A stretch of 8,237 nt of DNA from a virus (taxonomy: Duplodnaviria; Heunggongvirae; Uroviricota; Caudoviricetes): the IMG/VR virus record IMGVR_UViG_2660238318_000005, one strand, 5' to 3'. The notes under the pieces are model-generated. The model ran no database searches and was not told the origin of the DNA. It worked only from the letters and a program-made list of their open reading frames with translations. Shown in pieces: positions 1-8,237 of the stretch; the stretch's first letter is position 1, and each line of letters starts with the position of its first letter. A program made the position numbers and the translations under genes.

Positions 1-69
1 AGCACCTGTGTTGTTCTGAGGTGAGCATATCACCTCTGTTCAGGTGGCCAAATTCAGTGTGCCACTTCA
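1..69 (+). mobile_element. Right terminus of an IS3-family insertion sequence (IS911-like), element body lies left of the window
   Basis: Reverse complement of 1-69 begins TGAAGTGGCACACTGAATTTGGCCACC..., the TGA...GGCCACC pattern of IS3-family terminal inverted repeats; it matches my recollection of the IS911 IRR, not verified by search. Ends ...CA at 69. Confidence 0.5.
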
Positions 70-89
70 GACATTCTGAGGTGACAGCG

Positions 90-968
90 ATGATGACGTT
101 TAACCTGCGTGAACAACAAAAAAGACTACAGGCGCGAATGGATGAGTTACGGGCAGAGATTGCATTTGCTCAGAAGGGCGAAAAGCCATGGCCTTATCGT
201 TCCTGCCTGATGCGTGAAGGTCGCGGATATTGCGAAAAACATGGCGAATATCACACGCATATACTGGTGTGGAGCGATCGTAATGGCGAGGACAGAGAAG
301 AAATTTCATGCTGCCCTGACTGCTTAATCGCTGAGGCCAACGATTTGACCATGGAGCTGTCGTCCATCAAGGCGGAAGAGCTGACTGATAACGCCGGAAT
401 TGCCCTGCGTTTTCGGGACTGCGAGTTTGATAATTATCTGGAGGTTAATCCTGGCGCAGCCAGAAATCTTGCGGCCTGTCGCCGCTATGCGGAGAACTGG
501 CCAGATATGCTGGAGAACGGTACCAGTCTTGTTATGACCGGCAGTTGTGGTACCGGAAAAAATCATCTGGCTGTGGCTATGGCAAAACACATCATCCGTA
601 ACTATCTGGCCAGTGTGGAGATCACCGACGTGATGCGCCTTACCCGTGCTGTGAAAAATTGCTGGCGGAATGACAGCGAAAAAACAGCGGATGAAGTTAT
701 TGAGCGTTATGCGTCAATGGATTTGCTGATCATCGACGAAGTTGGCGTTCAGTTTGGCAGCGCGGCTGAAATGGCTATTTTGCAGGAAATTATCAACGCC
801 AGGTACGAAAGTATCTTGCCCACCATTCTGATCAGTAACCTCTCACCGGAAGAGTTGTGGGCGTTCATCAGTCCCCGAATTGCCGACAGGATCACAGACG
901 GGGGACGCAACTGGTTGTCGTTTAACTGGCCCAGTTACCGTTCTCGTATCAGAGGTGTGGCTGCATGA
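90..968 (+). CDS. Phage replication protein, DnaC/IstB-family AAA+ helicase loader with an N-terminal Cys/His-rich region
   Basis: Walker A GSCGTGKNHLA and Walker B LLIIDEVG in the translation. ATG at 90 follows GAGGTG (78-83) at good spacing; the track's GTG start at 21 would lie inside the IS end. Stop overlaps the next start (ATGA at 965-968). Confidence 0.75.
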   Translation: MMTFNLREQQKRLQARMDELRAEIAFAQKGEKPWPYRSCLMREGRGYCEKHGEYHTHILVWSDRNGEDREEISCCPDCLIAEANDLTMELSSIKAEELTDNAGIALRFRDCEFDNYLEVNPGAARNLAACRRYAENWPDMLENGTSLVMTGSCGTGKNHLAVAMAKHIIRNYLASVEITDVMRLTRAVKNCWRNDSEKTADEVIERYASMDLLIIDEVGVQFGSAAEMAILQEIINARYESILPTILISNLSPEELWAFISPRIADRITDGGRNWLSFNWPSYRSRIRGVAA

Positions 969-2356
969 CAACTCCAGTATGGCGTAACGATGACCTTGAA
1001 GGCGCTGTCATCGGCGCGTTCTTTCTGCGCGGAGCAGATCCTGAAGTGATGGATATTCTGGCCACACTGCCAGCGGACGTTTTTTCTGTACGAGCGTATC
1101 AGGATATCTATACAGGCATCTGCAGACAGGCCCGTGTTTCAGGAGTGATTGACCCCGTGCTGTTGTGTAATGAGATGCCGGAACTTGCCCCGGTGATTAC
1201 TGATACCGGGCGTAAAACCTGGGTGAAGTCTTCACTGGAGCACTATGTTGCAGCGTTGCGGCGCAATGCCGCACTGCGCGATGCAGAAAAAACACTGAAT
1301 GAGGCGCTGCAGAAATTACGTGATGCGCATACCTGTGAAGCAGCTGAAGATGCCCTGAAGGATGCGCAGAACATGATGGTCACACTGTCGACAGGAAAGG
1401 GCGTCATTCAGCCGGTACATATTGATGATGTGCTTCCGGAAGTGGTTGAGCGTGTTGAATGCCGGAATCAGGGGCTGGAGAAATCCAGGACGTTGATGAC
1501 CGGTATTGATGAACTGGACGCAAAAACAGGCGGTATGGAGCCCGGAGACCTGGTATTCATTGCCGCCCGTCCTTCGATGGGGAAAACCGAACTTGCGCTG
1601 GACATCATCGACAAGGTGACTGAGCAGGGGCATGGTGTGCTTCTGTTCACCATGGAGATGGCGAACATCCAGATTGGTGAACGTATGGTGTCTGCGGCTG
1701 GAGGGATGCCAGTATCACGCCTGAAATCTGTGGCTCACTTTGAAGATGAAGACTGGACGCGTTTCTCACAAGGGGTGGGGCGGATGACCGGGCGCAATAT
1801 CTGGATGGTGGACCAGGCGAACCTGGCCATTGATGAGATATGCGCAACAACGAAACACCACCTGATTAAATATCCGGAAACGGCGCTGGTGGTGGTTGAT
1901 TATCTCGGGCTGATAAAAAACCGAACCACGGGGCGTCATGACCTTGCCGTGGGTGAAATCTCAAAGGGGCTTAAAGGCCTGGCAAAATCCGGTGGTTTTC
2001 CGTTGATTGCGCTGAGCCAGCTCTCCCGCGGTGTGGAGTCCAGACCCAATAAACGTCCCATGAACTCAGACCTGAAAAATTCCGGAGAAATAGAGGCGGA
2101 TGCAGACATCATTCTGATGCTTTACAGGGATGAAGTGTACAACCCGGATACGCAGGCCAGGGGCATCGCAGAAATCAATATCACGAAACAACGTAACGGT
2201 TCTCTGGGAACGATTTACCGGCGTTTTTATAACGGACATTTTCTGCCTGTGGACCAGGAAAGTGCACGGGTGCTTTCCACTCCCATGAAGCCCGGCAATC
2301 CGCGCAGATACAGTAATAAACGAACTGACAGCAGTAAGATGGAGCGTTTCTTTTGA
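965..2356 (+). CDS. DnaB-family replicative DNA helicase (phage P-like function)
   Basis: 463-aa ORF with RecA-fold motifs: Walker A AARPSMGKT, Walker B-like LVVVDYLGL, and a QLSRG segment. Start is coupled to the upstream stop by an ATGA overlap. Confidence 0.85.
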   Translation: MTTPVWRNDDLEGAVIGAFFLRGADPEVMDILATLPADVFSVRAYQDIYTGICRQARVSGVIDPVLLCNEMPELAPVITDTGRKTWVKSSLEHYVAALRRNAALRDAEKTLNEALQKLRDAHTCEAAEDALKDAQNMMVTLSTGKGVIQPVHIDDVLPEVVERVECRNQGLEKSRTLMTGIDELDAKTGGMEPGDLVFIAARPSMGKTELALDIIDKVTEQGHGVLLFTMEMANIQIGERMVSAAGGMPVSRLKSVAHFEDEDWTRFSQGVGRMTGRNIWMVDQANLAIDEICATTKHHLIKYPETALVVVDYLGLIKNRTTGRHDLAVGEISKGLKGLAKSGGFPLIALSQLSRGVESRPNKRPMNSDLKNSGEIEADADIILMLYRDEVYNPDTQARGIAEINITKQRNGSLGTIYRRFYNGHFLPVDQESARVLSTPMKPGNPRRYSNKRTDSSKMERFF

Positions 2357-2610
2357 ACAACCAGACAATGACTTTTACCCCTGAACAATTGCGTAAACAC
2401 GCGCAGGAAATGCTGCGTCATGCTGAACAACTCGAAAAAACGGGCATAACAAAAGATGCTATCCGTAAAGATATGGTACCCGCGCTTCGGGAACTGATGC
2501 AGGCGAAGCATCGCGCACAGAAAGCAGTAGATGAGCTGGTGGACTGTGTGGCAGAGCTGGAAACCAGAGTCGGAAAGTTTGAAAAACTGGTGCAGGAGGC
2601 GCTGCGCTGA
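2353..2610 (+). CDS. Hypothetical small protein, predicted helical/coiled-coil, unknown function
   Basis: ORF in the ren/nin position after the helicase. TTG at 2353 has GGAG 8 nt upstream and overlaps the helicase stop; an alternative ATG at 2368 would give 80 aa. No recognisable motif. Confidence 0.45.
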   Translation: MNNQTMTFTPEQLRKHAQEMLRHAEQLEKTGITKDAIRKDMVPALRELMQAKHRAQKAVDELVDCVAELETRVGKFEKLVQEALR

Positions 2611-2705
2611 TGCGCCATGAGTTTGTTTTGCCCTGGCTTGTGCGCGATCATTATGTCCCTGGTGGAAAGCCCGGGATAAAAATCACCGAACCGGAGAGTA
2701 TTTGA
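2610..2705 (+). pseudogene. rusA: rusA remnant: 31-codon in-frame internal-deletion derivative of a RusA Holliday-junction resolvase gene
   Basis: Peptide MRHEFVLPWLVRDHYVPGGKPGIKITEPESI matches the N-terminus (EFVLPYPP) and C-terminus (VRGQLVPGGRLGIKITELGCA) of the intact rusA at 3862-4227, also at nucleotide level (gaatttgttttgcc; ggataaaaatcac). The roughly 90 codons between are missing. Confidence 0.75.
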
Positions 2706-2905
2706 TGAGCGTCAAAATTCAAACGATACCGGAACTGCTTATCCAGACACGAGGTAATATGACCGAAGTTTCACGAATGCTGAACTGTAATCGCGCCACG
2801 GTAAGAAAATATGCTGAAGATAAAGAGGGCAAAGGGCACGCCATTGTTGATGGTGTTCTGATTGTTCATCGTGGATGGGACAGGGGTAAAGACAGTGATG
2901 CGTGA
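2705..2905 (+). CDS. ninH: NinH-like protein
   Basis: 66-aa product [59 protein letters not shown]... aligns along its length with lambda NinH as I recall it. Start overlaps the rusA-remnant stop (TGATG); it sits directly upstream of Q as in lambdoid phages. Confidence 0.85.
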
Positions 2906-3278
2906 TATTCAGCAGGTTCTTGAGCGCTGGGGCGCGTGGGTGGCTAATAATCATGAGGATGTGACCTGGTCGTCCATTGCTGCCGGTTTTAAGGGATTAA
3001 TCCCTTCAAAAGTAAAATCCCGCCCGCAATGCTGTGACGATGACGCGATGGTTATATGTGGGTGTATGGCCCGCCTTAACCGGAACAACAACGATCTACA
3101 TGACTTGCTGGTTGACTACTACGTGTTTGGGATGACATTCATGACGCTGGCGCGGAAGCATGGATGCTCAGATGGTTATATAGGAAAGAAGCTACAAAAA
3201 GCCGAGGGGGTGGTGGAAGGAATGTTGATGATGTTGGGTGTCCGGTTAGAAATGGACAAATATATTGAACATCCCTGA
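2898..3278 (+). CDS. Late antiterminator Q, short Q21/QuuD-type
   Basis: 126-aa product with cysteine cluster [16 protein letters not shown]; closely resembles the DLP12 QuuD sequence as I recall it. ATG at 2898 overlaps the ninH stop. A tR'-like terminator follows 87 bp downstream. Confidence 0.75.
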
Positions 3279-3364
3279 TGGTAAGGGGCGACTTTCTAGA
3301 AAATATTTTACGTACGTAAAAAACGGGATATTCTGTTAAGAGTGGTTGCTTCGCCACACAGCTT

Positions 3365-3389
3365 AAACCCGCCTCCGGGCGGGTTTTTT
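3365..3389 (+). terminator. Rho-independent terminator, tR'-like, downstream of Q
   Basis: Perfect 9-bp stem AAACCCGCC / GGCGGGTTT around loop TCCG, followed by a T-run. Near-identical in architecture to the terminator at 4975-5000. Confidence 0.7.
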
Positions 3390-3477
3390 ATGCCTGAAAA
3401 ACGGTACAGGACGTTAAACACGCTGGTGGTCAGATGAGTTTGCAGATGTGATGACATATGGTTATTATTCTGCCTCC

Positions 3478-3490
3478 GGCCCTTTAGCTC
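3478..3490 (+). tRNA. 5' fragment (13 nt) of a tRNA gene, truncated by the scaffold gap
   Basis: GGCCCTTTAGCTC is identical to the first 13 nt of the tRNA at 5106-5181. The preceding spacer shares motifs (CGCTGGTGG, GTTATTAT) with the region upstream of that tRNA. Confidence 0.5.
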
Positions 3491-3500
3491 NNNNNNNNNN
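3491..3500. other. Assembly/scaffold gap (N10)
   Basis: Run of 10 N; flanks are unrelated (tRNA 5' end on the left, mid-ORF sequence on the right). Confidence 0.9.
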
Positions 3501-3588
3501 TCCACCACAGGAAGAGACGGTGGTCAGCATTGCCGTTGATCCGGAATCTCCGGCTCAGTATCTCCAGCGCCAGAAACCACAACGGGAA

Positions 3589-3861
3589 GAGATGCCTGTA
3601 TACACGCGCTGGGTAAAAACGCAGAAATGCATGACGTGTGGCAATCAGGCAGATGATCCGCACCACATCATTGGTCATGGACTGGGAGGGATGGGAACAA
3701 AGGCTGACGATTTGTTTGTTATTCCGCTGTGTCGTAAATGCCATAACGAACTACACGCCGGGGTAAAAGATTTTGAAGAAAAACACGGTAGTCAGTTGTT
3801 GTTGCTGATTCGTTTTTTAATGCACGCGAGAAATTCGGGTGTTCTGAAGTGGAAAGCATAA
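3589..3861 (+). CDS. YbcO-like (DUF1364-type) Cys/His-rich putative zinc-binding nuclease-like phage protein; may extend upstream into the gap
   Basis: CxxC...HH...C..CH..H motif (CMTCGNQADDPHHIIGHGLGGMGTKADDLFVIPLCRKCHNELH). Sits immediately upstream of rusA, as ybcO does in DLP12. The frame is open back to the gap at 3501, so the true 5' end is uncertain. Confidence 0.55.
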   Translation, partial: EMPVYTRWVKTQKCMTCGNQADDPHHIIGHGLGGMGTKADDLFVIPLCRKCHNELHAGVKDFEEKHGSQLLLLIRFLMHARNSGVLKWKA

Positions 3862-4227
3862 ATGACCGAACGCATAGAATTTGTTTTGCCTTACCCGCCA
3901 ACGGTGAACACCTACTGGCGACGTCGTGGCAGCACATATTTTGTATCAAAAGCCGGTGAGCGTTATCGCCGTGATGTGGCGCTAATTGTTCGCCAGCAGC
4001 GACTGAAATTAAACCTGTCCGGAAGGCTGGCGATAAAGATTATTGCAGAGCCACCGGATAAGCGCCGTCGTGACCTGGACAATATCCTGAAGGCACCGCT
4101 GGATGCGCTGACGCATGCTGGACTACTTATAGACGACGAGCAGTTTGATGAAATCAATATTGTGCGCGGTCAGCTCGTTCCTGGTGGGCGGCTGGGGATA
4201 AAAATCACAGAACTGGGGTGCGCATGA
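3862..4227 (+). CDS. rusA: RusA-family Holliday junction resolvase
   Basis: 121-aa product with RusA hallmarks (RRRDLDN acidic motif, C-terminal GGRLGIKITELG). ATG follows the upstream stop directly (TAAATG). Confidence 0.85.
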   Translation: MTERIEFVLPYPPTVNTYWRRRGSTYFVSKAGERYRRDVALIVRQQRLKLNLSGRLAIKIIAEPPDKRRRDLDNILKAPLDALTHAGLLIDDEQFDEINIVRGQLVPGGRLGIKITELGCA

Positions 4228-4907
4228 ATAACCAGTATTTACAGTTTGTGCGTGAGCAGCTCATTATCGCCACCGCTGATTTGAGTGGGGCAACAAAAGG
4301 TCAGCTTGAAGCCTGGCAAGAGAATGCCATGTTCGATACAGGGCGTTACAGGCGTAAAAAAATCCGGTACCGCGATGAAGTGACTGGAAAAATGATAACG
4401 CGGGATAATCCACCAATCCCGGGAAAGCAATCGCTGGCGAAGGGGACGTCAATTCCTCTGGTCAGTCCGGTTGAGTTTTCGACATCATCGTGGCGGCGGG
4501 CTGTTCTGTCTCTTGAAGAGCACTATAAAGCCTGGTTGTTGTGGTGTTACAGCGGGAGTATTTGTTGGGAATATCAGATCGCGATAACACAGTGGGCGTG
4601 GAATGAATTTAATGCTCAATCCGGTACCAGAAAAATTGCAGGGAAAACGCAGGAACGCCTGAAAAAATTAATCTGGCTGGCGGCGCAGGCAGTAAAAGCA
4701 GAACTTTTTGGTGGGGAAGGTTATGAATACCAGGAGCTGGCATTACTGGCGGGAGTGACAACTAAAAACTGGTCCAAAACATTTACTCGTCACTGGGTTG
4801 CAATGAAACACATTTTTCACCGACTGGATAGTGAGGCTTTATTGTTTGTAATGAGAACACGTTCAAAAAAAAGACGGCATTTTCAAAGCAAAGTGTTGCA
4901 AAAGTAG
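4224..4907 (+). CDS. Putative late antiterminator Q, long type (Q82/QuuQ-like?)
   Basis: Assigned by position: directly after rusA (ATGA overlap) and directly before a consensus-like promoter, a tR'-like terminator, a tRNA cluster and a holin. I did not recognise the sequence itself. Confidence 0.5.
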   Translation: MNNQYLQFVREQLIIATADLSGATKGQLEAWQENAMFDTGRYRRKKIRYRDEVTGKMITRDNPPIPGKQSLAKGTSIPLVSPVEFSTSSWRRAVLSLEEHYKAWLLWCYSGSICWEYQIAITQWAWNEFNAQSGTRKIAGKTQERLKKLIWLAAQAVKAELFGGEGYEYQELALLAGVTTKNWSKTFTRHWVAMKHIFHRLDSEALLFVMRTRSKKRRHFQSKVLQK

Positions 4908-4924
4908 ATTGAAAGGCATATATT
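4896..4924 (+). promoter_or_regulatory. Candidate sigma70 late promoter (pR'-like) overlapping the Q-like gene's 3' end
   Basis: TTGCAA (4896-4901), 17-bp spacer, TATATT (4919-4924). About 50 bp upstream of the tR'-like terminator, which is the pR'/qut/tR' arrangement. Confidence 0.45.
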
Positions 4925-4974
4925 CATGCAAATCTGATACTTTGCCGATTTTGTACGTGATGGCAAAAGCAAAC

Positions 4975-5000
4975 AAAACCCGCCCACAAGCGGGTTTTTT
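4975..5000 (+). terminator. Rho-independent terminator, tR'-like
   Basis: Perfect 9-bp stem AAAACCCGC / GCGGGTTTT around loop CCACAA, then a T-run. Confidence 0.7.
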
Positions 5001-5105
5001 GTGCCACTTATCTCGGATAGACATGGTGAATGCGCTGGTGGAGGAGATAAGGGTGATTTTTGAATGCTTGCAACATTGATTTCGTAACGTTATTATCCTG
5101 CGCCC

Positions 5106-5181
5106 GGCCCTTTAGCTCAGTGGTGAGAGCGAGCGACTCATAATCGCCAGGTCGCTGGTTCAAATCCAGCAAGGGCCACCA
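5106..5181 (+). tRNA. tRNA with CAU anticodon, most similar to tRNA-Ile2 (lysidine type, ileX/ileZ-like)
   Basis: Cloverleaf by hand: acceptor GGCCCTT/AAGGGCC, anticodon loop CUCAUAA, T-loop TTCAAAT, 3' CCA encoded. Resembles E. coli ileX as I recall it; Met versus Ile2 cannot be settled from the anticodon alone. Confidence 0.75.
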
Positions 5182-5183
5182 AC

Positions 5184-5259
5184 CGCCACTAGCTCATCAG
5201 GAAAGAGCGTCAACCCTTTAAGTTGAGTGTGCGAGGTTCGAGTCCCCGGTGGCGGTCCA
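5184..5259 (+). tRNA. tRNA-like gene with atypical anticodon loop (CCUUUAA: UUU anticodon with C33); identity uncertain
   Basis: Acceptor CCGCCAC/GTGGCGG, D-arm GCTC...GAGC, anticodon stem TCAAC/GTTGA, T-loop TTCGAGT, 3' CCA. The loop lacks the near-universal U33. Confidence 0.55.
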
Positions 5260-5261
5260 GT

Positions 5262-5337
<76 letters not shown>

Positions 5338-5340
5338 TAT

Positions 5341-5415
<75 letters not shown>

Positions 5416-5474
5416 GTCAGAGTCTTTCAGTCTGCGATGATGGGAAATCCCGGAGTGACTGAAAGACGTTTAAG

Positions 5475-5547
5475 TTATGAATGATCGCCTTTTTTTGCAA
5501 AATTGCTGTGCAGAAATACTAACCTTCGGGCGTGCGATCATTCATAA
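5475..5547. repeat. Perfect 14-bp inverted repeat with 45-nt spacer in the tRNA-to-holin intergenic region
   Basis: TTATGAATGATCGC (5475-5488) is the exact reverse complement of GCGATCATTCATAA (5534-5547). A second 11-bp inverted repeat lies at 5422-5432 / 5457-5467. Confidence 0.6.
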
Positions 5548-5707
5548 GCACTCTGCTTTTATTCCGATTAACTGTGGGTGGTTTGTTGGATAGAGTGCTT
5601 TCCTTACTGTATATATCGTTTCGCCCGCTTTTGCGTTTTTTTCTTTTCAAATCCCTTTCATTTCTCAGTGTAAAACTACGCCATCCGTTATTTGCGGAGG
5701 TGAGGCT

Positions 5708-5923
5708 ATGAAATCCATGGACAAAATTTCAACGGGCATTGCCTACGGCACCTCCGCAGGCAGTGCTGGCTACTGGTTTTTACAGTGGCTTGATCAGGTC
5801 AGTCCGTCACAGTGGGCTGCGATTGGTGTACTGGGGAGTCTGGTTCTGGGCTTCCTGACTTATCTGACAAATCTGTACTTCAAAATCAGAGAAGACAAGC
5901 GTAAGGCTGCGAGAGGTGAATAA
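5708..5923 (+). CDS. S: Class II pinholin, phage 21 S-type (S21-like), with dual-start motif
   Basis: 71-aa product [30 protein letters not shown]... matches S21 as I recall it; the two Met codons (M1, M4) fit the antiholin/holin pair. Strong RBS GGAGGTGAGG upstream; stop overlaps the endolysin start (TAATG). Confidence 0.85.
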
Positions 5924-5939
5924 TGTCGCCATCATTACG
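5923..5939 (+). pseudogene. 5' stub (17 nt) of an R21-type SAR endolysin gene, interrupted
   Basis: ATGTCGCCATCATTACG is identical to the start of the endolysin copy at 6143; it is followed at 5940 by the GTAAGCG... element instead of CAAGGCTGTT. Confidence 0.6.
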
Positions 5940-6006
5940 GTAAGCGCCCCATCAGCGACGTCTTGTGAAAATTGTCCTGTCTGGCAACAATCGCGCCCAT
6001 CTATAT
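5940..6006 (+). mobile_element. Terminus of a repeated element, proposed IS66-family insertion sequence end (copy 1)
   Basis: GTAAGCGCCCCATCAGCGACGTCTTGTGAAAATTGTCCTGTCTGGCAACAATCGCGCCCATCTATA recurs at 6437-6502; both copies run into N10 gaps. IS66-family ends characteristically begin 5'-GTAA; family assignment is from memory. Confidence 0.4.
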
Positions 6007-6016
6007 NNNNNNNNNN
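6007..6016. other. Assembly/scaffold gap (N10)
   Basis: Run of 10 N between the repeated element end and a holin-internal sequence. Confidence 0.9.
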
Positions 6017-6017
6017 G

Positions 6018-6143
6018 GTCAGTCCATCACAGTGGGCTGCGATTGGTGTGCTGGGAAGTCTGCTTCTGGGGCTTCTGACTTATCTGACGAATCTGTATTT
6101 CAAAATAAGAGAAGATAAGCGTAAGGCTGCGAGAGGTGAATAA
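6018..6143 (+). CDS. S21-type pinholin, 3' portion of a second diverged copy, 5'-truncated by the gap
   Basis: Encodes ...[41 protein letters not shown], with several nucleotide and amino-acid differences from the copy at 5797-5923, so it is a paralogue and not the same locus. Confidence 0.7.
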
Positions 6144-6436
6144 TGTCGCCATCATTACGCAAGGCTGTTGCAGTTGCTATTGGTGGCGGGGCTGTTGCTA
6201 TAGCATCTGTGTTAATCACTGGCCCAGGTGGTAACGATGGTCTGGAAGGTGTCAGCTACATACCATACAAAGATATCATTGGTGTATGGACTGTATGTCA
6301 CGGACACACCGGAAAAGACATCATGCCTGGTAAAACGTATACCGAAGCAGAATGCAAAGCTCTCCTGAATAAAGACCTTGTCACTGTCGCCAGACAAATT
6401 AACCCGTACATCAAAGTCGATATACCGGAAACAACG
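6143..6436 (+). pseudogene. R21-type SAR endolysin (T4-lysozyme-like), N-terminal 98 codons, interrupted after ...DIPETT
   Basis: SAR-like N-terminus ([20 protein letters not shown]) and catalytic region [16 protein letters not shown] (E-x8-D-x5-T). Homology ends at 6436, where the GTAAGCG... element begins. Confidence 0.7.
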
Positions 6437-6502
6437 GTAAGCGCCCCATCAGCGACGTCTTGTGAAAATTGTCCTGTCTGGCAACAATCGCGCCCATCTA
6501 TA
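6437..6502 (+). mobile_element. Terminus of the same repeated element, proposed IS66-family end (copy 2)
   Basis: Same sequence as 5940-6005, again abutting an N10 gap. Confidence 0.4.
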
Positions 6503-6512
6503 NNNNNNNNNN
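6503..6512. other. Assembly/scaffold gap (N10)
   Basis: Run of 10 N. Confidence 0.9.
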
Positions 6513-6513
6513 C

Positions 6514-6540
6514 AAGCGTAAGGCTGCACGGGGAGAGTAA
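6514..6540 (+). CDS. Last 8 codons plus stop of a third S21-type holin copy, 5'-truncated by the gap
   Basis: Encodes KRKAARGE-stop, the same C-terminal tail as the holins at 5708 and 6018, with different nucleotides (GCACGGGGAGAG versus GCGAGAGGTGAA). Confidence 0.5.
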   Translation, partial: KRKAARGE

Positions 6541-6543
6541 ATA

Positions 6544-7173
6544 ATGAAGCATGAAGAAATGAATCAGCGATTCAATCACCTGGAAAATGAAATCACTGAG
6601 CTTAATAAAAAATTGTCGGCGTTGGTGAGTTCTGAAGATGAAAACAAACGCCGCGATGAGCATTATGCGGCGATTTACGATTACTGCCACAAAGTCGCTC
6701 ACGAGACTTTTATGAAGTTTTTGCAGGAAAAGTTTTTACCGGCCGCATTGTCAGAAAAAGAGGCGGCTTACCTGCGGCCTGAGTACGTCATTACGGTTAA
6801 CAGTGCCGGAGAGGAAGAGCATAAAAGTGATTTTATTGCGTCTGCACCGGATAAAGACCAGGAACCCCATCGGCCTTTCAGGGTTTCCTGTGAAGAGGGT
6901 GAGTTCGTCGTTTATGAGAACGGAAAACCTGTCCGGGCATCGCATCATCACTGCCTGAAAATTATTAATCTCGCTATCAGATGCCTGAAAGACGAAAACA
7001 CCAGAGTTATGAAACGCATTGGCCGTTGCATGGGGTATTTGCAGGTGGCGGCAGAGATTGAAGCACTTGCCAGTGGTGCAGACATGGATGCTGCGGTGCG
7101 GGAGGCTCTTCTTCGTGATTTCAATACTCCCCCTTTAAGAAAGAGCCTGATGACTGGATCCAGCCGGGGCTGA
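6544..7173 (+). CDS. Hypothetical 209-aa protein between holin and endolysin; no recognisable family, no signal peptide or TM segment
   Basis: Uninterrupted ORF with GGAG upstream of ATG 6544, starting 3 nt after the holin stop. Hydrophilic, with an N-terminal coiled-coil-like stretch (NQRFNHLENEITELNKKLSAL) and an HHHC motif. Confidence 0.5.
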   Translation: MKHEEMNQRFNHLENEITELNKKLSALVSSEDENKRRDEHYAAIYDYCHKVAHETFMKFLQEKFLPAALSEKEAAYLRPEYVITVNSAGEEEHKSDFIASAPDKDQEPHRPFRVSCEEGEFVVYENGKPVRASHHHCLKIINLAIRCLKDENTRVMKRIGRCMGYLQVAAEIEALASGADMDAAVREALLRDFNTPPLRKSLMTGSSRG

Positions 7174-7238
7174 CTTATCTTAAAAGGCGTATATAAGTTG
7201 GCTCGTTATTTGTTGCCGATAAATCCTGATAAATATCC

Positions 7239-7772
7239 ATGAGCGCAAAAATCAAATACGGCCTGTCGGCTGCTGTTCTGGCGCTGATTGCCGCAGGCGC
7301 GTCTGCTCCCCAGATACTTGACCAGTTTCTGAACGAAAAAGAGGGTAATCACACAACGGCATACCGTGATGGTTCTGGCATATGGACCATCTGTCGTGGT
7401 GCCACAATGGTGGATGGTAAGCCTGTCATACCGGGAATGAAGCTGTCGAAGGAAAAATGTGACCAGGTTAACGCTATTGAACGTGATAAGGCGCTGGCAT
7501 GGGTGGAGCGCAATATTAAAGTACCTCTGACCGAACCCCAGAAAGCGGGTATAGCGTCATTTTGCCCCTATAACATTGGCCCCGGTAAGTGTTTCCCGTC
7601 GACGTTTTATAAGCGGCTGAATGCCGGTGATCGTAAGGGCGCATGCGAGGCGATTCGCTGGTGGATAAAAGATGTTGGGCGCGATTGCCGCATACGTTCA
7701 AATAACTGCTATGGACAGGTTATTCGTCGTGACCAGGAAAGCGCATTAGCCTGTTGGGGGATAGATCAATGA
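7239..7772 (+). CDS. SAR-type endolysin (glycoside hydrolase family 24, T4-lysozyme-like)
   Basis: Gly/Ala-rich weakly hydrophobic N-terminus ([17 protein letters not shown]) typical of signal-anchor-release domains, then the E-x8-D-x5-T catalytic motif ([16 protein letters not shown]). Stop overlaps the Rz start (ATGA). The RBS is weak. Confidence 0.8.
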
Positions 7773-8173
7773 GCAGAGTCACCGCGATTATCTCCGCTCT
7801 GGTTATCTGCATCATCGTCTGCCTGTCATGGGCTGTTAATCATTACCGTGATAACGCCATTACCTACAAAGAGCAGCGCGACAAAAACGCCGGAGAACTG
7901 AAGCTGGCGAACGCAACCATTACTGACATGCAGCAGCGCCAGCGTGATGCTGATGCACTCGATGCTAAATACACGAAGGAGTTAGCTGATGCGAAAGCTG
8001 AAAATGATGCTCTTCGGCGCAAGCTTGATAATGGTGGTCGGGTGCTCGTCAAAGGAAAATGCCCTGTGCCATCCTCAGCCGAAACCTCCAGCGCCTCCGG
8101 CATGGGCAATGATGCCACCGTCGAACTCTCTCCAGTTGCTGGACGAAACGTTCTCGGTATCCGGGACGGGTGA
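7769..8173 (+). CDS. Rz: Rz i-spanin (inner-membrane spanin subunit); C-terminus possibly truncated by the adjacent IS
   Basis: N-terminal TM segment ([20 protein letters not shown]), then a charged coiled-coil region. Follows the endolysin and contains the embedded Rz1 frame. The stop TGA (8171-8173) is also the first three bases of the IS end. Confidence 0.8.
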
Positions 8174-8183
8174 GGTAGCCTGA
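7989..8183 (+). CDS. Rz1: Rz1 o-spanin (outer-membrane lipoprotein) embedded in the +1 frame of Rz
   Basis: Signal peptide with lipobox LIMVVGC, proline-rich mature part ([16 protein letters not shown]) resembling lambda Rz1 as I recall it, and a strong SD AAGGAG 8 nt upstream. The last codons (..GEVA-stop) are read from the IS end. Confidence 0.8.
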
Positions 8184-8237
8184 GTTTAACGGACACTCCT
8201 TCCTGAAATAGAATGGCATCAGAAGGAGCTAATAATG
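8171..8237 (+). mobile_element. Left terminus of an IS3-family insertion sequence (IS600-like), with the start of its orfA at 8235
   Basis: TGAGGTAGCCTGAGTTTAACGGACACTCC... has the IS3-family TGA-initiated inverted-repeat form, then an RBS GGAG and ATG at 8235. It resembles the IS600 IRL as I recall it, not verified. Confidence 0.5.

What the first reader, a model, noticed from the sequence alone, without database searches (positions are those of the whole stretch)
2898..5000. Two different Q-type late-control modules with near-identical tR'-like terminators
A short Q (126 aa, Cys-rich) and a long Q-like ORF (227 aa) are each followed within 70-90 bp by an AAACCCGCC...GGCGGGTTTTTT-type hairpin and then by a tRNA start with a related leader. 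They represent two paralogous late-regulation modules, probably from different prophages, with different antiterminator specificities. The long ORF is assigned as Q only by context.
Basis: partly seen in the sequence, partly recalled or inferred. Interest (0 to 1): 0.5.

Follow-up and report, generated by a model that had tools for sequence, protein, structure and literature searches.

The report
Two prophage late-gene switches, falsely adjacent
The region holds the well-known late-gene on-switches (Q antiterminator, late promoter, terminator, tRNA genes) of two different lambda-like prophages of a Shigella flexneri-type genome, and they lie side by side only because a draft assembly joined separate contigs with a run of N.

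Summary
The features described are real. The 126-aa protein (2898-3278) belongs to the Q21 family (PF06530, 182 bits). The 227-aa protein (4224-4907) belongs to the Q82 family (PF06323, 305 bits) and is 74% identical to phage 82 Q. Each gene is followed by its own late promoter region, a G+C-rich hairpin with a T6 tract (3365-3389; 4975-5000), a conserved promoter-like element and a tRNA-Ile2 start.

The two modules are not neighbours in any genome. A 10-N scaffold gap (3491-3500) separates them. In complete genomes the short-Q contig runs straight on into tRNAs, holin and the window's last contig. The long-Q contig lies in another prophage about 244 kb away.

The stretches between Q and hairpin are unrelated (40% identity, the level of shuffled sequence). 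They carry family-specific promoter and pause elements. Similarity begins at the hairpin, which acts as a mosaic joint.

The hairpins share a core but are about 71% identical, not near-identical. Module 2's roughly 70-nt leader matches what is published for the phage 82 late promoter and resembles the Salmonella Gifsy-1 sRNA IsrJ. Module 1's hairpin corresponds to an early, read-through hairpin of Shiga-toxin phages, not to their mapped tR'.

All of this is known biology. Interest is low.

The parts
2702..2905 (+). NinH gene, last nin-region gene before the short Q
   Evidence: PF06322, 91 bits. Annotated 'protein ninH' in the colinear complete genomes.
2898..3278 (+). Short Q antiterminator, 126 aa, Q21 family
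   Evidence: PF06530, 182 bits against a cut-off of 26. Matches Q21 chain 6P18 at E = 3.9e-8 over residues 8-85. 85-87% identical to the Q of Shiga-toxin phages. Identical protein WP_001204832.1 is annotated 'antiterminator Q family protein'.
3307..3334 (+). Predicted late promoter pR' of module 1 (-35 TTTACG 3307-3312, 16-nt spacer, -10 TATTCT 3329-3334)
   Evidence: Aligns with the 'putative late promoter PR'' annotated in Shigella phage Ss-VASD. That position fits the 258-nt StxS transcript mapped in PMC7547250. Inferred by homology; it scores 8 of 12 against the consensus, below the scan threshold.
3335..3364 (+). Conserved initial transcribed region of module 1 (TAAGAGTGGTTGCTTCGCCAC...); predicted start near 3338-3341
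   Evidence: The most conserved block in the alignment of six phages and prophages. The pause element could not be pinned down. G3348 is A in all five homologues.
3365..3389 (+). Hairpin plus T6 tract: intrinsic terminator of module 1, giving an RNA of about 50 nt
   Evidence: -16.6 kcal/mol, 1 of 200 shuffles as good. Conserved in homologues. It is the only such terminator between the predicted pR' and the tRNAs.
3439..3468 (+). tRNA promoter-like element TTTGCA-18-TATTAT, ending 9 nt before the tRNA
   Evidence: Promoter scan. Hexamers conserved between the two modules. A start site driving the tRNAs was mapped between tR' and the tRNAs in a Stx2 phage (PMC7547250).
3478..3490 (+). First 13 nt of tRNA-Ile2 (anticodon CAU), cut off by the contig end
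   Evidence: Identical to 5106-5118. In S. flexneri SFBU1023 and E. coli CFSAN029787 the tRNA continues here.
3491..3500 (.). 10-N scaffold spacer: an artificial junction between two prophage contigs
   Evidence: Complete genomes place the two flanks in different prophages.
3502..3861 (+). C-terminal 119 aa of a DUF968/HNH-like protein, cut at the 5' end by the contig start
   Evidence: PF06147, 159 bits, profile positions 62-169 of 171. The full-length gene is present in FDAARGOS_944.
3862..4227 (+). RusA Holliday-junction resolvase
   Evidence: PF05866, 59 bits. NCBIfam PRK09786 at 90 bits, below its cut-off of 200. Annotated RusA in FDAARGOS_944.
4224..4907 (+). Long Q antiterminator, 227 aa, Q82 family
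   Evidence: PF06323, 305 bits against a cut-off of 25. 74% identical to phage 82 Q (X92588.1), 73% to phage 434 Q, 68% to Gifsy-1 Q, 94-95% to PPompW-type prophage Q.
4896..4924 (+). Late promoter pR' of the phage 82 type (-35 TTGCAA 4896-4901, -10 TATATT 4919-4924), overlapping the end of Q
   Evidence: Promoter scan. Conserved in seven Q82-family phages from five genera.
4930..4954 (+). Initial transcribed region with a sigma70-dependent pause element
   Evidence: Layout: +1 in an AAA run at 4930, TG at +6/+7, -10-like TACTTT at +9 to +14, GCC at +15 to +17, AT-rich +18 to +25, predicted pause at +25 (4954). This matches the published description of 82 pR' point for point (PMC5001585). TG.TA is invariant in alignment A4.
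4975..5000 (+). Hairpin plus T6 tract: intrinsic terminator of module 2, giving an RNA of about 70 nt
   Evidence: -12.5 kcal/mol, 0 of 200 shuffles as good. A terminator is annotated at the same place in phage 434. End-to-end sub-threshold match of 4927-4999 to Rfam isrJ, 23 bits.
5068..5096 (+). tRNA promoter-like element TTGCAA-17-TATTAT, ending 9 nt before the tRNA
   Evidence: 91% identical to the stretch upstream of ileZ in Stx2 phages. Start site mapped in a Stx2 phage (PMC7547250).
5106..5415 (+). tRNA cluster: Ile2 (CAU, called Met by ARAGORN), Lys (UUU), Thr (UGU), Gly (UCC)
   Evidence: ARAGORN. Rfam tRNA at 44-72 bits. RefSeq annotation labels the first one tRNA-Ile.

Best explanation
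The finding covers the late-gene switches of two different lambdoid prophages of a Shigella flexneri-like genome. Contig ordering in a draft assembly placed them next to each other (10-N spacer at 3491-3500). They are not adjacent in the genome.

Each switch is the standard Q cassette. A Q gene sits at the end of the nin region. A constitutive late promoter (pR') lies at or just after the Q stop codon. Its initial transcribed region makes sigma70-bound RNA polymerase pause. An intrinsic terminator then ends the transcript after about 50 nt (module 1) or about 70 nt (module 2).

After prophage induction, Q binds its own site in pR' and loads onto the paused polymerase, which then ignores terminators. 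Transcription runs through the hairpin and the tRNA genes into the holin, endolysin and Rz genes.

The tRNA cluster also has its own promoter, just before the first tRNA, so it can be expressed in the lysogen.

Module 1 uses a Q21-family protein with a Shiga-toxin-phage-type pR'. Module 2 uses a Q82-family protein with a phage-82-type pR'. The two proteins should therefore each act only at their own promoter. The hairpin and everything downstream of it is a shared, exchangeable block.

What is shown here: family membership, sequence architecture, homology to characterised loci and genomic placement. What is inferred: promoter activity, pausing, termination and antitermination for these particular sequences.
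For: Family assignment:
-, with the family definitions from PMC9388147.

Assembly artefact:
- N runs at 3491-3500, 6007-6016 and 6503-6512.
- None of 5,426 complete E. coli genomes holds 80% or more of the window in one place.
- Window 1-3490 is 3489/3490 identical to S. flexneri SFBU1023. There it continues into tRNA Ile2-Arg-Thr-Gly and holin, and after 778 bp into window 6513-8237 at 98.8% identity. E. coli CFSAN029787 has the same layout.
- In E. coli FDAARGOS_944 the long-Q contig (99.5% identical) and the short-Q prophage lie about 244 kb apart.
- The contigs are ordered as if sorted by where they map on a single reference prophage.

Module 2 cassette:
-, the match to published 82 pR' features, the terminator annotated in phage 434, and the same promoter and start sequence in front of the experimentally detected 74-nt IsrJ RNA of Gifsy-1.

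Module 1 cassette:
- Homology to the annotated pR' of Ss-VASD, whose position fits the mapped 258-nt StxS, and the conserved block through the hairpin.

tRNA promoter:
-.

Unrelated promoter regions but related downstream blocks:
-.
- A natural hybrid in S. flexneri joins an 82-type Q and pR' to the module-1-type leader exactly at the hairpin.
Against: - No transcript, pausing or antitermination data exist for these sequences.
- In Shiga-toxin phages the hairpin homologous to module 1's lies inside the detected 258-nt StxS RNA. It is read through at least partly even without Q. The version here has a stronger stem (-16.6 against -11.2 kcal/mol), but its efficiency is unknown.
- The pause element of module 1 could not be identified. 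The window has G at 3348 where five homologues have A.
- The prophage carrying module 2 has an ISSfl4 insertion at the start of its endolysin gene, so that switch may no longer drive productive lysis.
- The true distance between the contigs in the source strain is not known. Only related complete genomes were examined.
Confidence: 0.88

Rival explanations
1. The two Q modules really are in tandem in one composite prophage of the source strain: short Q, tRNA start, a short unsequenced gap, then DUF968, RusA and long Q. That would be a phage with two late switches in series.
For: The scaffold places them 10 N apart. Some scaffolders use 10 N for short gaps supported by read pairs. Multiple related prophages in one genome can recombine: S. 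flexneri SFBU1023 has three loci with the same 60-nt leader and a hybrid module.
Against: - Contig 1 stops exactly where the repeated tRNA begins, and contig 2 starts in the middle of a gene.
- In every related complete genome examined, contig 1 runs on into tRNAs, holin and contig 4.
- None of 5,426 complete E. coli genomes has the combined arrangement.
- Two further N-joined fragments with redundant holin pieces follow. That is what contig sorting against one reference prophage would produce.
Confidence: 0.04
2. The hairpins matter mainly as the 3' ends of constitutively made, trans-acting small RNAs (IsrJ-like for module 2, StxS-like for module 1) that act on host genes during lysogeny. Late-gene gating would be a secondary or lost role.
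For: - Short pR'-terminated RNAs are regulatory sRNAs in related prophages: StxS (PMC7547250) and IsrJ (PMC2330248).
- Window 4927-4999 matches Rfam isrJ end to end and shares its promoter and first 10 nt.
- The lysis cassette after module 2 is interrupted by an IS.
Against: - The isrJ match is below the family threshold (23 against 37 bits), and the middle of the RNA differs.
- Module 1 lacks the 3' 74-nt part that is the active StxS.
- Both Q genes are intact, which argues that the switch function is retained or was lost only recently.
- This reading adds to the terminator role; it does not replace it.
Confidence: 0.2
3. Module 1's hairpin is not the effective late terminator. As in Shiga-toxin phages, it is a leaky early hairpin, and late-gene gating in this prophage relies on something else or is absent.
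For: In Stx phages the homologous hairpin lies at about +25 to +52 of the 258-nt StxS RNA, which ends at a second hairpin mapped as tR'. That second hairpin is absent from the window.
Against: - The window's version has a longer stem with a 4-nt loop (UCCG): -16.6 kcal/mol against -11.2 for Ss-VASD, and stronger than the mapped Stx tR' at -14.5.
- No other hairpin with a T-tract lies between pR' and the holin. The structure after the tRNAs (5422-5468) has no proper T-tract and a z-score of only -1.7.
Confidence: 0.12

Closest known systems
Phage 82 late control: Q82, 82 pR' with the +25 sigma70-dependent pause, and downstream terminator
   Same: The protein is in the same Pfam family (PF06323) and is 74% identical to Q82. 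The promoter hexamers match. The start lies in an AAA run. The TG-extended -10-like element at +6 to +14, GCC at +15 to +17 and the AT-rich +18 to +25 fit the published description. The gene follows rusA, as in phage 82.
   Different: 26% of residues differ. The phage 82 DNA downstream of Q was not available for direct alignment (X92588.1 ends 9 nt after Q). Here the cassette is followed by four tRNA genes.
Salmonella Gifsy-1 AntQ and the IsrJ sRNA (Rfam RF01393)
   Same: Gifsy-1 Q is 68% identical. The isrJ gene has the same TTGCAA-17-TATATT promoter, the same AAATCTGATA start, a small internal hairpin, an A-rich linker and a terminator. It is followed by a tRNA gene.
   Different: The window's RNA scores only 23 bits against the isrJ model (cut-off 37), and the middle 35 nt differ. 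In Gifsy-1 the isrK-orf45-anrP insertion separates Q from this promoter.
Shiga-toxin phage late region (933W/Sakai type): Q, pR', StxS RNA, tR', tRNA promoter, ileZ-argN-argO
   Same: The short Q is 85-87% identical. The pR' hexamers, initial transcribed block and first hairpin align at about 79%. The tRNA promoter and the ileZ-type tRNA are conserved.
   Different: There are no stx genes. The 200 nt that carry the active StxS part and the mapped tR' are missing. The Q is 126 aa rather than the 144 aa annotated in Ss-VASD. The tRNA set is Ile2-Arg-Thr-Gly.
Phage 21 Q (Q21; structures 6P18 and 6JNX)
   Same: Same Pfam family (PF06530). A direct sequence match at E = 3.9e-8 over residues 8-85, including the W..W and C.DDD motifs.
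   Different: It is a distant relative: only the N-terminal two-thirds align, and it is 126 aa against 162 aa. The Q21 binding element (two 8-bp direct repeats) was not recognised here.
Phage lambda Q, pR', 6S RNA and tR'
   Same: Same logic and gene position: a constitutive late promoter, a promoter-proximal pause, a short terminated RNA and Q-dependent read-through.
   Different: Neither protein hits the lambda Q family (PF03589). The leaders are 50-70 nt rather than 194 nt.

Membership tests
Q82 family of antiterminators (PF06323) | Profile match above the curated threshold over the full length | tested here: met
   305 bits against a cut-off of 25; residues 4-217 on profile positions 1-214 of 220.
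Q82 family of antiterminators (PF06323) | Clear full-length similarity to phage 82 Q itself | tested here: met
   74% identity over 227 aa to X92588.1, 'phage 82 Q antiterminator', E = 9e-110.
Q82 family of antiterminators (PF06323) | Cognate late promoter with a TG-extended -10-like pause element about +9 to +14 and a pause near +25 | tested here: met
   Sequence at 4896-4954 fits the description in PMC5001585 and is conserved in seven family members. Pausing itself was not measured.
Q82 family of antiterminators (PF06323) | Q-dependent read-through of terminators | not testable with these tools
   Needs an in vitro transcription or reporter assay.
Q21 family of antiterminators (PF06530) | Profile match above the curated threshold over the full length | tested here: met
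   182 bits against a cut-off of 26; residues 1-118 on profile positions 1-118 of 118.
Q21 family of antiterminators (PF06530) | Detectable similarity to the structurally solved Q21 | tested here: met
   E = 3.9e-8 to 6P18 and 6JNX over residues 8-85.
Q21 family of antiterminators (PF06530) | Q binding element (two direct 8-bp subsites) and a sigma-dependent pause element at the late promoter | tested here: inconclusive
   The promoter is homologous to the Stx-phage pR', but neither the subsites nor a convincing -10-like element could be assigned. G3348 replaces a conserved A.
Lambda Q family (PF03589) | Profile match | tested here: not met
   Neither protein hits this family at E <= 0.01.
Late-promoter terminator (tR'-type intrinsic terminator) | Stable G+C-rich hairpin directly followed by a T-tract, on the sense strand, between pR' and the late genes | tested here: met
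   with the positions relative to the predicted promoters and to holin.
Late-promoter terminator (tR'-type intrinsic terminator) | Termination without Q and read-through with Q | not testable with these tools
   Homologues only: a terminator is annotated in phage 434, and the IsrJ 3' end is a Rho-independent terminator.
Rfam isrJ (RF01393) | Covariance-model score at or above the gathering threshold | tested here: not met
   23.0 bits against 37, E = 0.027 in a 261-nt search, though the match is end to end. The Gifsy-1 copy scores 100 bits.
StxS sRNA of Shiga-toxin phages | Presence of the 3' 74-nt active part ending at the mapped tR' hairpin | tested here: not met
   Only the first roughly 50 nt of the 258-nt transcript have a counterpart. 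The tR' hairpin sequence is absent from the window.

The most novel reading that the evidence does not exclude
The roughly 70-nt leader of module 2 (4930-5000) may be a divergent member of the IsrJ class of Hfq-binding sRNAs. More generally, the Salmonella virulence-associated sRNA IsrJ may be simply the terminated late-promoter leader of a Q82-type prophage switch, the counterpart of lambda 6S RNA and StxS. None of the IsrJ papers I could read makes this link. If so, Q82-type prophages across Enterobacteriaceae would each supply a constitutive leader sRNA whose variable middle part is free to evolve host targets. The terminator hairpin would be the recombination joint at which Q-specific heads are swapped onto common tRNA and lysis blocks.
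Probability: 0.45. Interest if true: 0.3.

Novelty: already known. Interest (0 to 1): 0.1.

Why it matters
This matters little for new biology. Both switches are textbook lambdoid late-control cassettes from families with characterised members.

The practical lesson is about data. Runs of N in a window mark contig joins, and apparent gene neighbourhoods across them, here 'two Q modules in tandem', should not be interpreted.

Two small points may interest specialists:
- IsrJ of Gifsy-1 sits behind a phage-82-type late promoter and so looks like a late-leader RNA.
- The terminator hairpin is the exact point at which unrelated Q and pR' heads are joined to a shared leader-tRNA block. A natural hybrid in S. 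flexneri shows the exchange.

Tried and rejected
- **Exact search across the junction.** A search of genome contigs for the junction with its 10 N found nothing. A second search with the 60 nt before the gap found S. flexneri SFBU1023 and E. coli ECMA0423, but not the source record itself.
- **NCBIfam.** It returned no match for either Q, so Pfam carried the assignment.
- **PDB sequence search with the long Q.** It gave only a chance-level hit (Ply protein, E = 0.013). It found no chain from a Q82-family protein.
- **Simple terminator scan.** It missed both hairpins on the + strand.
- **Papers not held.** Plunkett 1999 (PMC93574) and Perdue and Roberts 2010 (PMC3058920) are not held. The template sequences of PMC4914094 are not held either. 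The phage 82 promoter could therefore be compared only through the written description in PMC5001585, not base by base.
- **Rfam isrK match at 4928-5000** (22.5 bits). I rejected it as meaningful. The Gifsy-1 isrK sequence has a different promoter and body and overlaps c4-type antisense targets. The match rests mostly on the terminator.
- **IS end.** I first read the IS end at the contig ends as IS2, from the feature under the best plasmid hit. The neighbourhood in pCP301 shows it is the left end of ISSfl4 (IS66 family) inserted into an IS2 copy.
- **Structure prediction and the large protein searches** were not used, because the family assignments were already unambiguous.


Full report
**1. 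What is in the window**

The window is not one continuous piece of genome. Three runs of exactly 10 N lie at 3491-3500, 6007-6016 and 6503-6512, dividing it into four contigs.

- **Contig 1 (1-3490):** a DnaC-like ATPase, a DnaB-like helicase, an 85-aa ORF, NinH and a 126-aa ORF.
- **Contig 2 (3501-6006):**
  - It begins inside a DUF968 gene.
  - It continues with RusA and a 227-aa ORF.
  - Next come four tRNA genes and a phage-21-type holin.
  - It ends in the terminal 67 nt of an insertion sequence.
- **Contig 3 (6017-6502):** a second holin 3' part and the start of an endolysin with an N-terminal hydrophobic stretch. It ends in the same IS end.
- **Contig 4 (6513-8237):** the last codons of a third holin copy, a 209-aa ORF, a lysozyme and an Rz-like gene.

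**2. The observation**

- The short ORF is 2898-3278 and the long ORF is 4224-4907.
- Hairpin 1 is AAACCCGCC/TCCG/GGCGGGTTT at 3365-3386, with six T's at 3384-3389. It starts 87 nt after the stop codon.
- Hairpin 2 is AAAACCCGC/CCACAA/GCGGGTTTT at 4975-4998, with T's running to 5000. It starts 67 nt after the stop codon.
- Their free energies are -16.6 and -12.5 kcal/mol. One and none of 200 shuffles fold as well.
- The shared pattern AACCCGC-N3-9-GCGGGTTTT occurs nowhere else in the window, against 0.00 expected.
- Both hairpins are followed by a promoter-like element: TTTGCA-18-TATTAT at 3439-3468 and TTGCAA-17-TATTAT at 5068-5096.
- Nine nucleotides later comes GGCCCTTTAGCTC, the 5' end of a tRNA with anticodon CAU.
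- The first tRNA is cut after 13 nt by the N run.

'Near-identical' is too strong. Only 20 of 28 aligned positions of the hairpins match.

**3. The two proteins**

The 126-aa protein matches Pfam PF06530 end to end at 182 bits. The 227-aa protein matches PF06323 end to end at 305 bits.

A structural paper from the Ebright laboratory states that Q proteins fall into three families: Q21 (PF06530), Q-lambda (PF03589) and Q82 (PF06323) (PMC9388147). So the short protein is a Q21-family member and the long one a Q82-family member. Neither hits the lambda family.

Direct comparisons agree.

- The short protein matches the crystallised Q21 at E = 3.9e-8.
- It is 85-87% identical to the Q of many Shiga-toxin phages.
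- The long protein is 74% identical to phage 82 Q, 73% to phage 434 Q and 68% to Gifsy-1 Q.
- It is 94-95% identical to the Q of PPompW-type prophages.

**4. The adjacency is an assembly artefact**

- Searching the whole window against 5,426 complete E. coli genomes gave no genome with 80% or more of it in one place.
- The best genomes cover 73% in a 5.9-kb stretch. In CFSAN029787 that stretch reads:
  - ATPase, helicase, hypothetical protein, NinH and short Q;
  - then tRNA-Ile, Arg, Thr and Gly;
  - then holin, the 209-aa ORF, lysozyme and the lysis protein.
- That is contig 1, then a tRNA and holin block, then contig 4.
- An exact-match search found Shigella flexneri SFBU1023, which is 3489/3490 identical to contig 1. 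There the sequence runs on through the four tRNAs and holin for 778 bp into contig 4 at 98.8% identity.
- Contig 2 is found at 99.5% identity in E. coli FDAARGOS_944, inside a different prophage: hokD, DUF968, RusA, Q, tRNA Ile-Lys-Thr-Gly, holin, RrrD, P27-type terminase.
- In that strain the short-Q prophage lies about 244 kb away.
- Contig 1 ends exactly where the repeated tRNA begins.
- Contigs 2, 3 and 4 start at progressively later points of the shared tRNA, holin and lysozyme region. That is the order produced by sorting contigs against one reference prophage. This last point is my inference.

**5. Module 2 (Q82 type)**

A promoter, TTGCAA (4896-4901), 17 nt, TATATT (4919-4924), overlaps the end of Q. 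Taking A4930 as +1 gives this layout:

| Position | Sequence or feature |
|---|---|
| +1 to +3 | AAA |
| +6/+7 | TG |
| +9 to +14 | TACTTT |
| +15 to +17 | GCC |
| +18 to +25 | GATTTTGT |

The Roberts laboratory describes 82 pR' as follows (PMC5001585):
- a -10-like pause element with an extended -10 TG, which must lie at about +9 to +14;
- a discriminator GCC at +15 to +17;
- an AT-rich stretch at +18 to +25;
- pausing at +25/+26.

Their cited title on slippage at the 82 late promoter fits an AAA start. The window matches on every point.

An alignment of the stretch after Q from seven Q82-family phages shows a conserved TTGCAAAA..GATT..TATAxT..CATGyAAATyTGrTAT, followed by a hairpin with a T-tract in most. 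In Gifsy-1 the stretch used lies in front of isrJ. The hosts are Escherichia/Shigella, Salmonella, Klebsiella, Enterobacter and Cronobacter. The phage 434 record annotates a terminator at the equivalent place, 49-74 nt after Q. Termination at 4998-5001 would give an RNA of about 70 nt.

**6. A link to IsrJ**

- Rfam's isrJ model matches 4927-4999 end to end at 23 bits, below its cut-off of 37.
- In Gifsy-1, isrJ scores 100 bits.
- The Gifsy-1 gene is preceded by TTGCAA-17-TATATT and starts with AAATCTGATAT, which is the same promoter and start.
- IsrJ is an experimentally detected 74-nt Hfq-binding RNA with its own start and a Rho-independent terminator (PMC2330248 and PMC4825925).
- It is highly transcribed in lysogens under all conditions tested (PMC7067206).
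- In Gifsy-1 the Q gene and this promoter are separated by the isrK-orf45-anrP insertion.

I therefore read IsrJ as the late-promoter leader of a Q82-type switch, and module 2's leader as a diverged relative. The papers I could read do not make this connection. The original IsrJ paper contains no word starting with 'antiterminat'.

This gives indirect experimental support that such a promoter fires and such a hairpin terminates. The weaker isrK match is, in my view, terminator-driven chance.

**7. Module 1 (Q21 family, Shiga-toxin-phage type)**

Window 3300-3389 aligns at about 79% with the stretch after Q in many Stx phages. In Shigella phage Ss-VASD a 'putative late promoter PR'' is annotated there. 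The window has TTTACG (3307-3312), 16 nt, TATTCT (3329-3334) at the aligned position.

Sy et al. mapped the late transcript of the Sakai Stx phages. StxS is 258 nt from pR' to tR' (PMC7547250). In Ss-VASD, counting 258 nt back from the T-tract of the second hairpin (GCCAGCC...GGCTGGCTTTTTT, ending at locus position 1499) lands 2-7 nt after the annotated -10. So the annotation and the mapping agree.

It follows that the first hairpin, the one homologous to the window's, lies at about +25 to +52 inside StxS and is at least partly read through there.

The window lacks the second hairpin. Its own hairpin is stronger: -16.6 kcal/mol, against -11.2 for Ss-VASD and -14.5 for the mapped Stx tR'. It is the only terminator-like structure before the tRNAs and holin. 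I therefore take it as this prophage's late terminator, giving an RNA of about 50 nt, with less certainty than for module 2.

The block from the -10 to the hairpin is the best conserved part among six homologues. I could not assign the Q binding element or the pause element. The window, and the identical S. flexneri sequence, has G at 3348 where all five homologues have A.

**8. The leader and tRNA promoter**

The two post-hairpin leaders are only modestly similar: 52% identity against 44 +/- 3% for shuffles. They share CGCTGGTGG and both promoter hexamers. The module-2 promoter region is 91% identical to the stretch upstream of ileZ in Stx2 phages. [quoted passage not shown] The 'related leader' is thus best explained as a conserved tRNA promoter.

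**9. Where specificity lies, and the mosaic joint**

The Q-to-hairpin stretches of the two modules are 40% identical, no better than shuffled sequence. Similarity starts at the hairpin.

S. flexneri SFBU1023 contains a natural hybrid. A Q82-family Q and an 82-type promoter and pause region like module 2's are joined at the hairpin to a leader whose last 60 nt before and into the tRNA are identical to module 1's. The rest of that leader is nearly identical to module 1's.

So the Q gene and its promoter-pause region travel as one specificity unit, and the hairpin is the crossover point onto a common leader, tRNA and lysis block. From established knowledge of Q proteins, a loaded polymerase ignores terminators in general, and recognition is at the Q binding element and the paused complex.

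**10. Verdict**

- The tandem layout is an artefact.
- Everything belongs to known families.
- The only mildly new points are the IsrJ link and the hairpin as mosaic joint.
- No step of the mechanism was measured for these sequences. It rests on homology to characterised systems.

Noticed in passing
window 3491-3500, 6007-6016, 6503-6512: Three runs of exactly 10 N split the window into four contigs. Pieces of three different holin genes (5708-5923, 6017-6143, 6513-6538) follow one another, so the lysis region is also a collage of paralogous prophage fragments.
   Followed up: yes
window 5940-6006 and 6438-6502: Contigs 2 and 3 both end in the same roughly 66-nt sequence starting GTAAGCGCCCC. 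One copy is inserted at codon 5 of one endolysin gene, and the other lies in the middle of a second endolysin gene that has an N-terminal hydrophobic stretch. In pCP301 this sequence is the left end of ISSfl4 (IS66 family). It occurs in 259 plasmids, mostly from Shigella and E. coli. At least two prophage lysis cassettes are therefore knocked out by the same IS.
   Followed up: partly
L016 1107-1222 (Gifsy-1, minus strand); window 4896-5000: The Salmonella sRNA gene isrJ sits directly behind a phage-82-type late promoter (TTGCAA-17-TATATT, start AAATCTGATAT). It therefore looks like the terminated late-leader RNA of Gifsy-1, moved away from its Q gene by the isrK-orf45-anrP insertion. The IsrJ papers I read do not say this.
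   Followed up: partly
L006 7420-7790 (S. flexneri SFBU1023, minus strand): A natural hybrid. A Q82-family Q and 82-type pR' like module 2's are fused at the terminator hairpin to a leader whose last 60 nt before and into the tRNA are identical to module 1's. The same genome has three loci carrying that 60-nt leader.
   Followed up: partly
window 3348: In the highly conserved initial transcribed block TAAGAGTGGTTAC, the window (and the identical S. flexneri sequence) has G where all five aligned phages have A. If this block holds the sigma-dependent pause element, the change could weaken Q loading.
   Followed up: no
window 5183-5259 versus L001 6487-6563 and L008 5132-5208: The second tRNA of the cluster is Lys (UUU) in the long-Q prophage but Arg (UCU) in the short-Q prophage, at the same position and of the same length. 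The other three tRNAs (Ile2, Thr, Gly) are shared.
   Followed up: no
window 5422-5468: A long imperfect inverted repeat (AGTCTTTCAGTC...GACTGAAAGAC) lies just after the last tRNA and before the holin. It has no proper T-tract and a z-score of only -1.7. It is conserved in the S. flexneri locus. Its role is unknown.
   Followed up: no
window 6544-7173: A 209-aa ORF between holin and lysozyme has no Pfam or NCBIfam match. It is annotated 'hypothetical protein' in complete genomes and is frameshifted in FDAARGOS_944.
   Followed up: no
L002 5724-6412 (E. coli FDAARGOS_944): The closest complete-genome copy of the long Q is annotated as frameshifted, whereas the window's copy is intact.
   Followed up: no
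L011, L012, L013 (phages PhiR40_1, cdtI, 4A7): In these phages the matched segment (module-1-type initial transcribed region and hairpin) lies downstream of an oppositely oriented gene, for example a porin OmpC gene in 4A7. In PhiR40_1 this places the segment about 600 nt after the annotated Q gene. The Q gene was not located in the fetched stretches of cdtI and 4A7.
   Followed up: no
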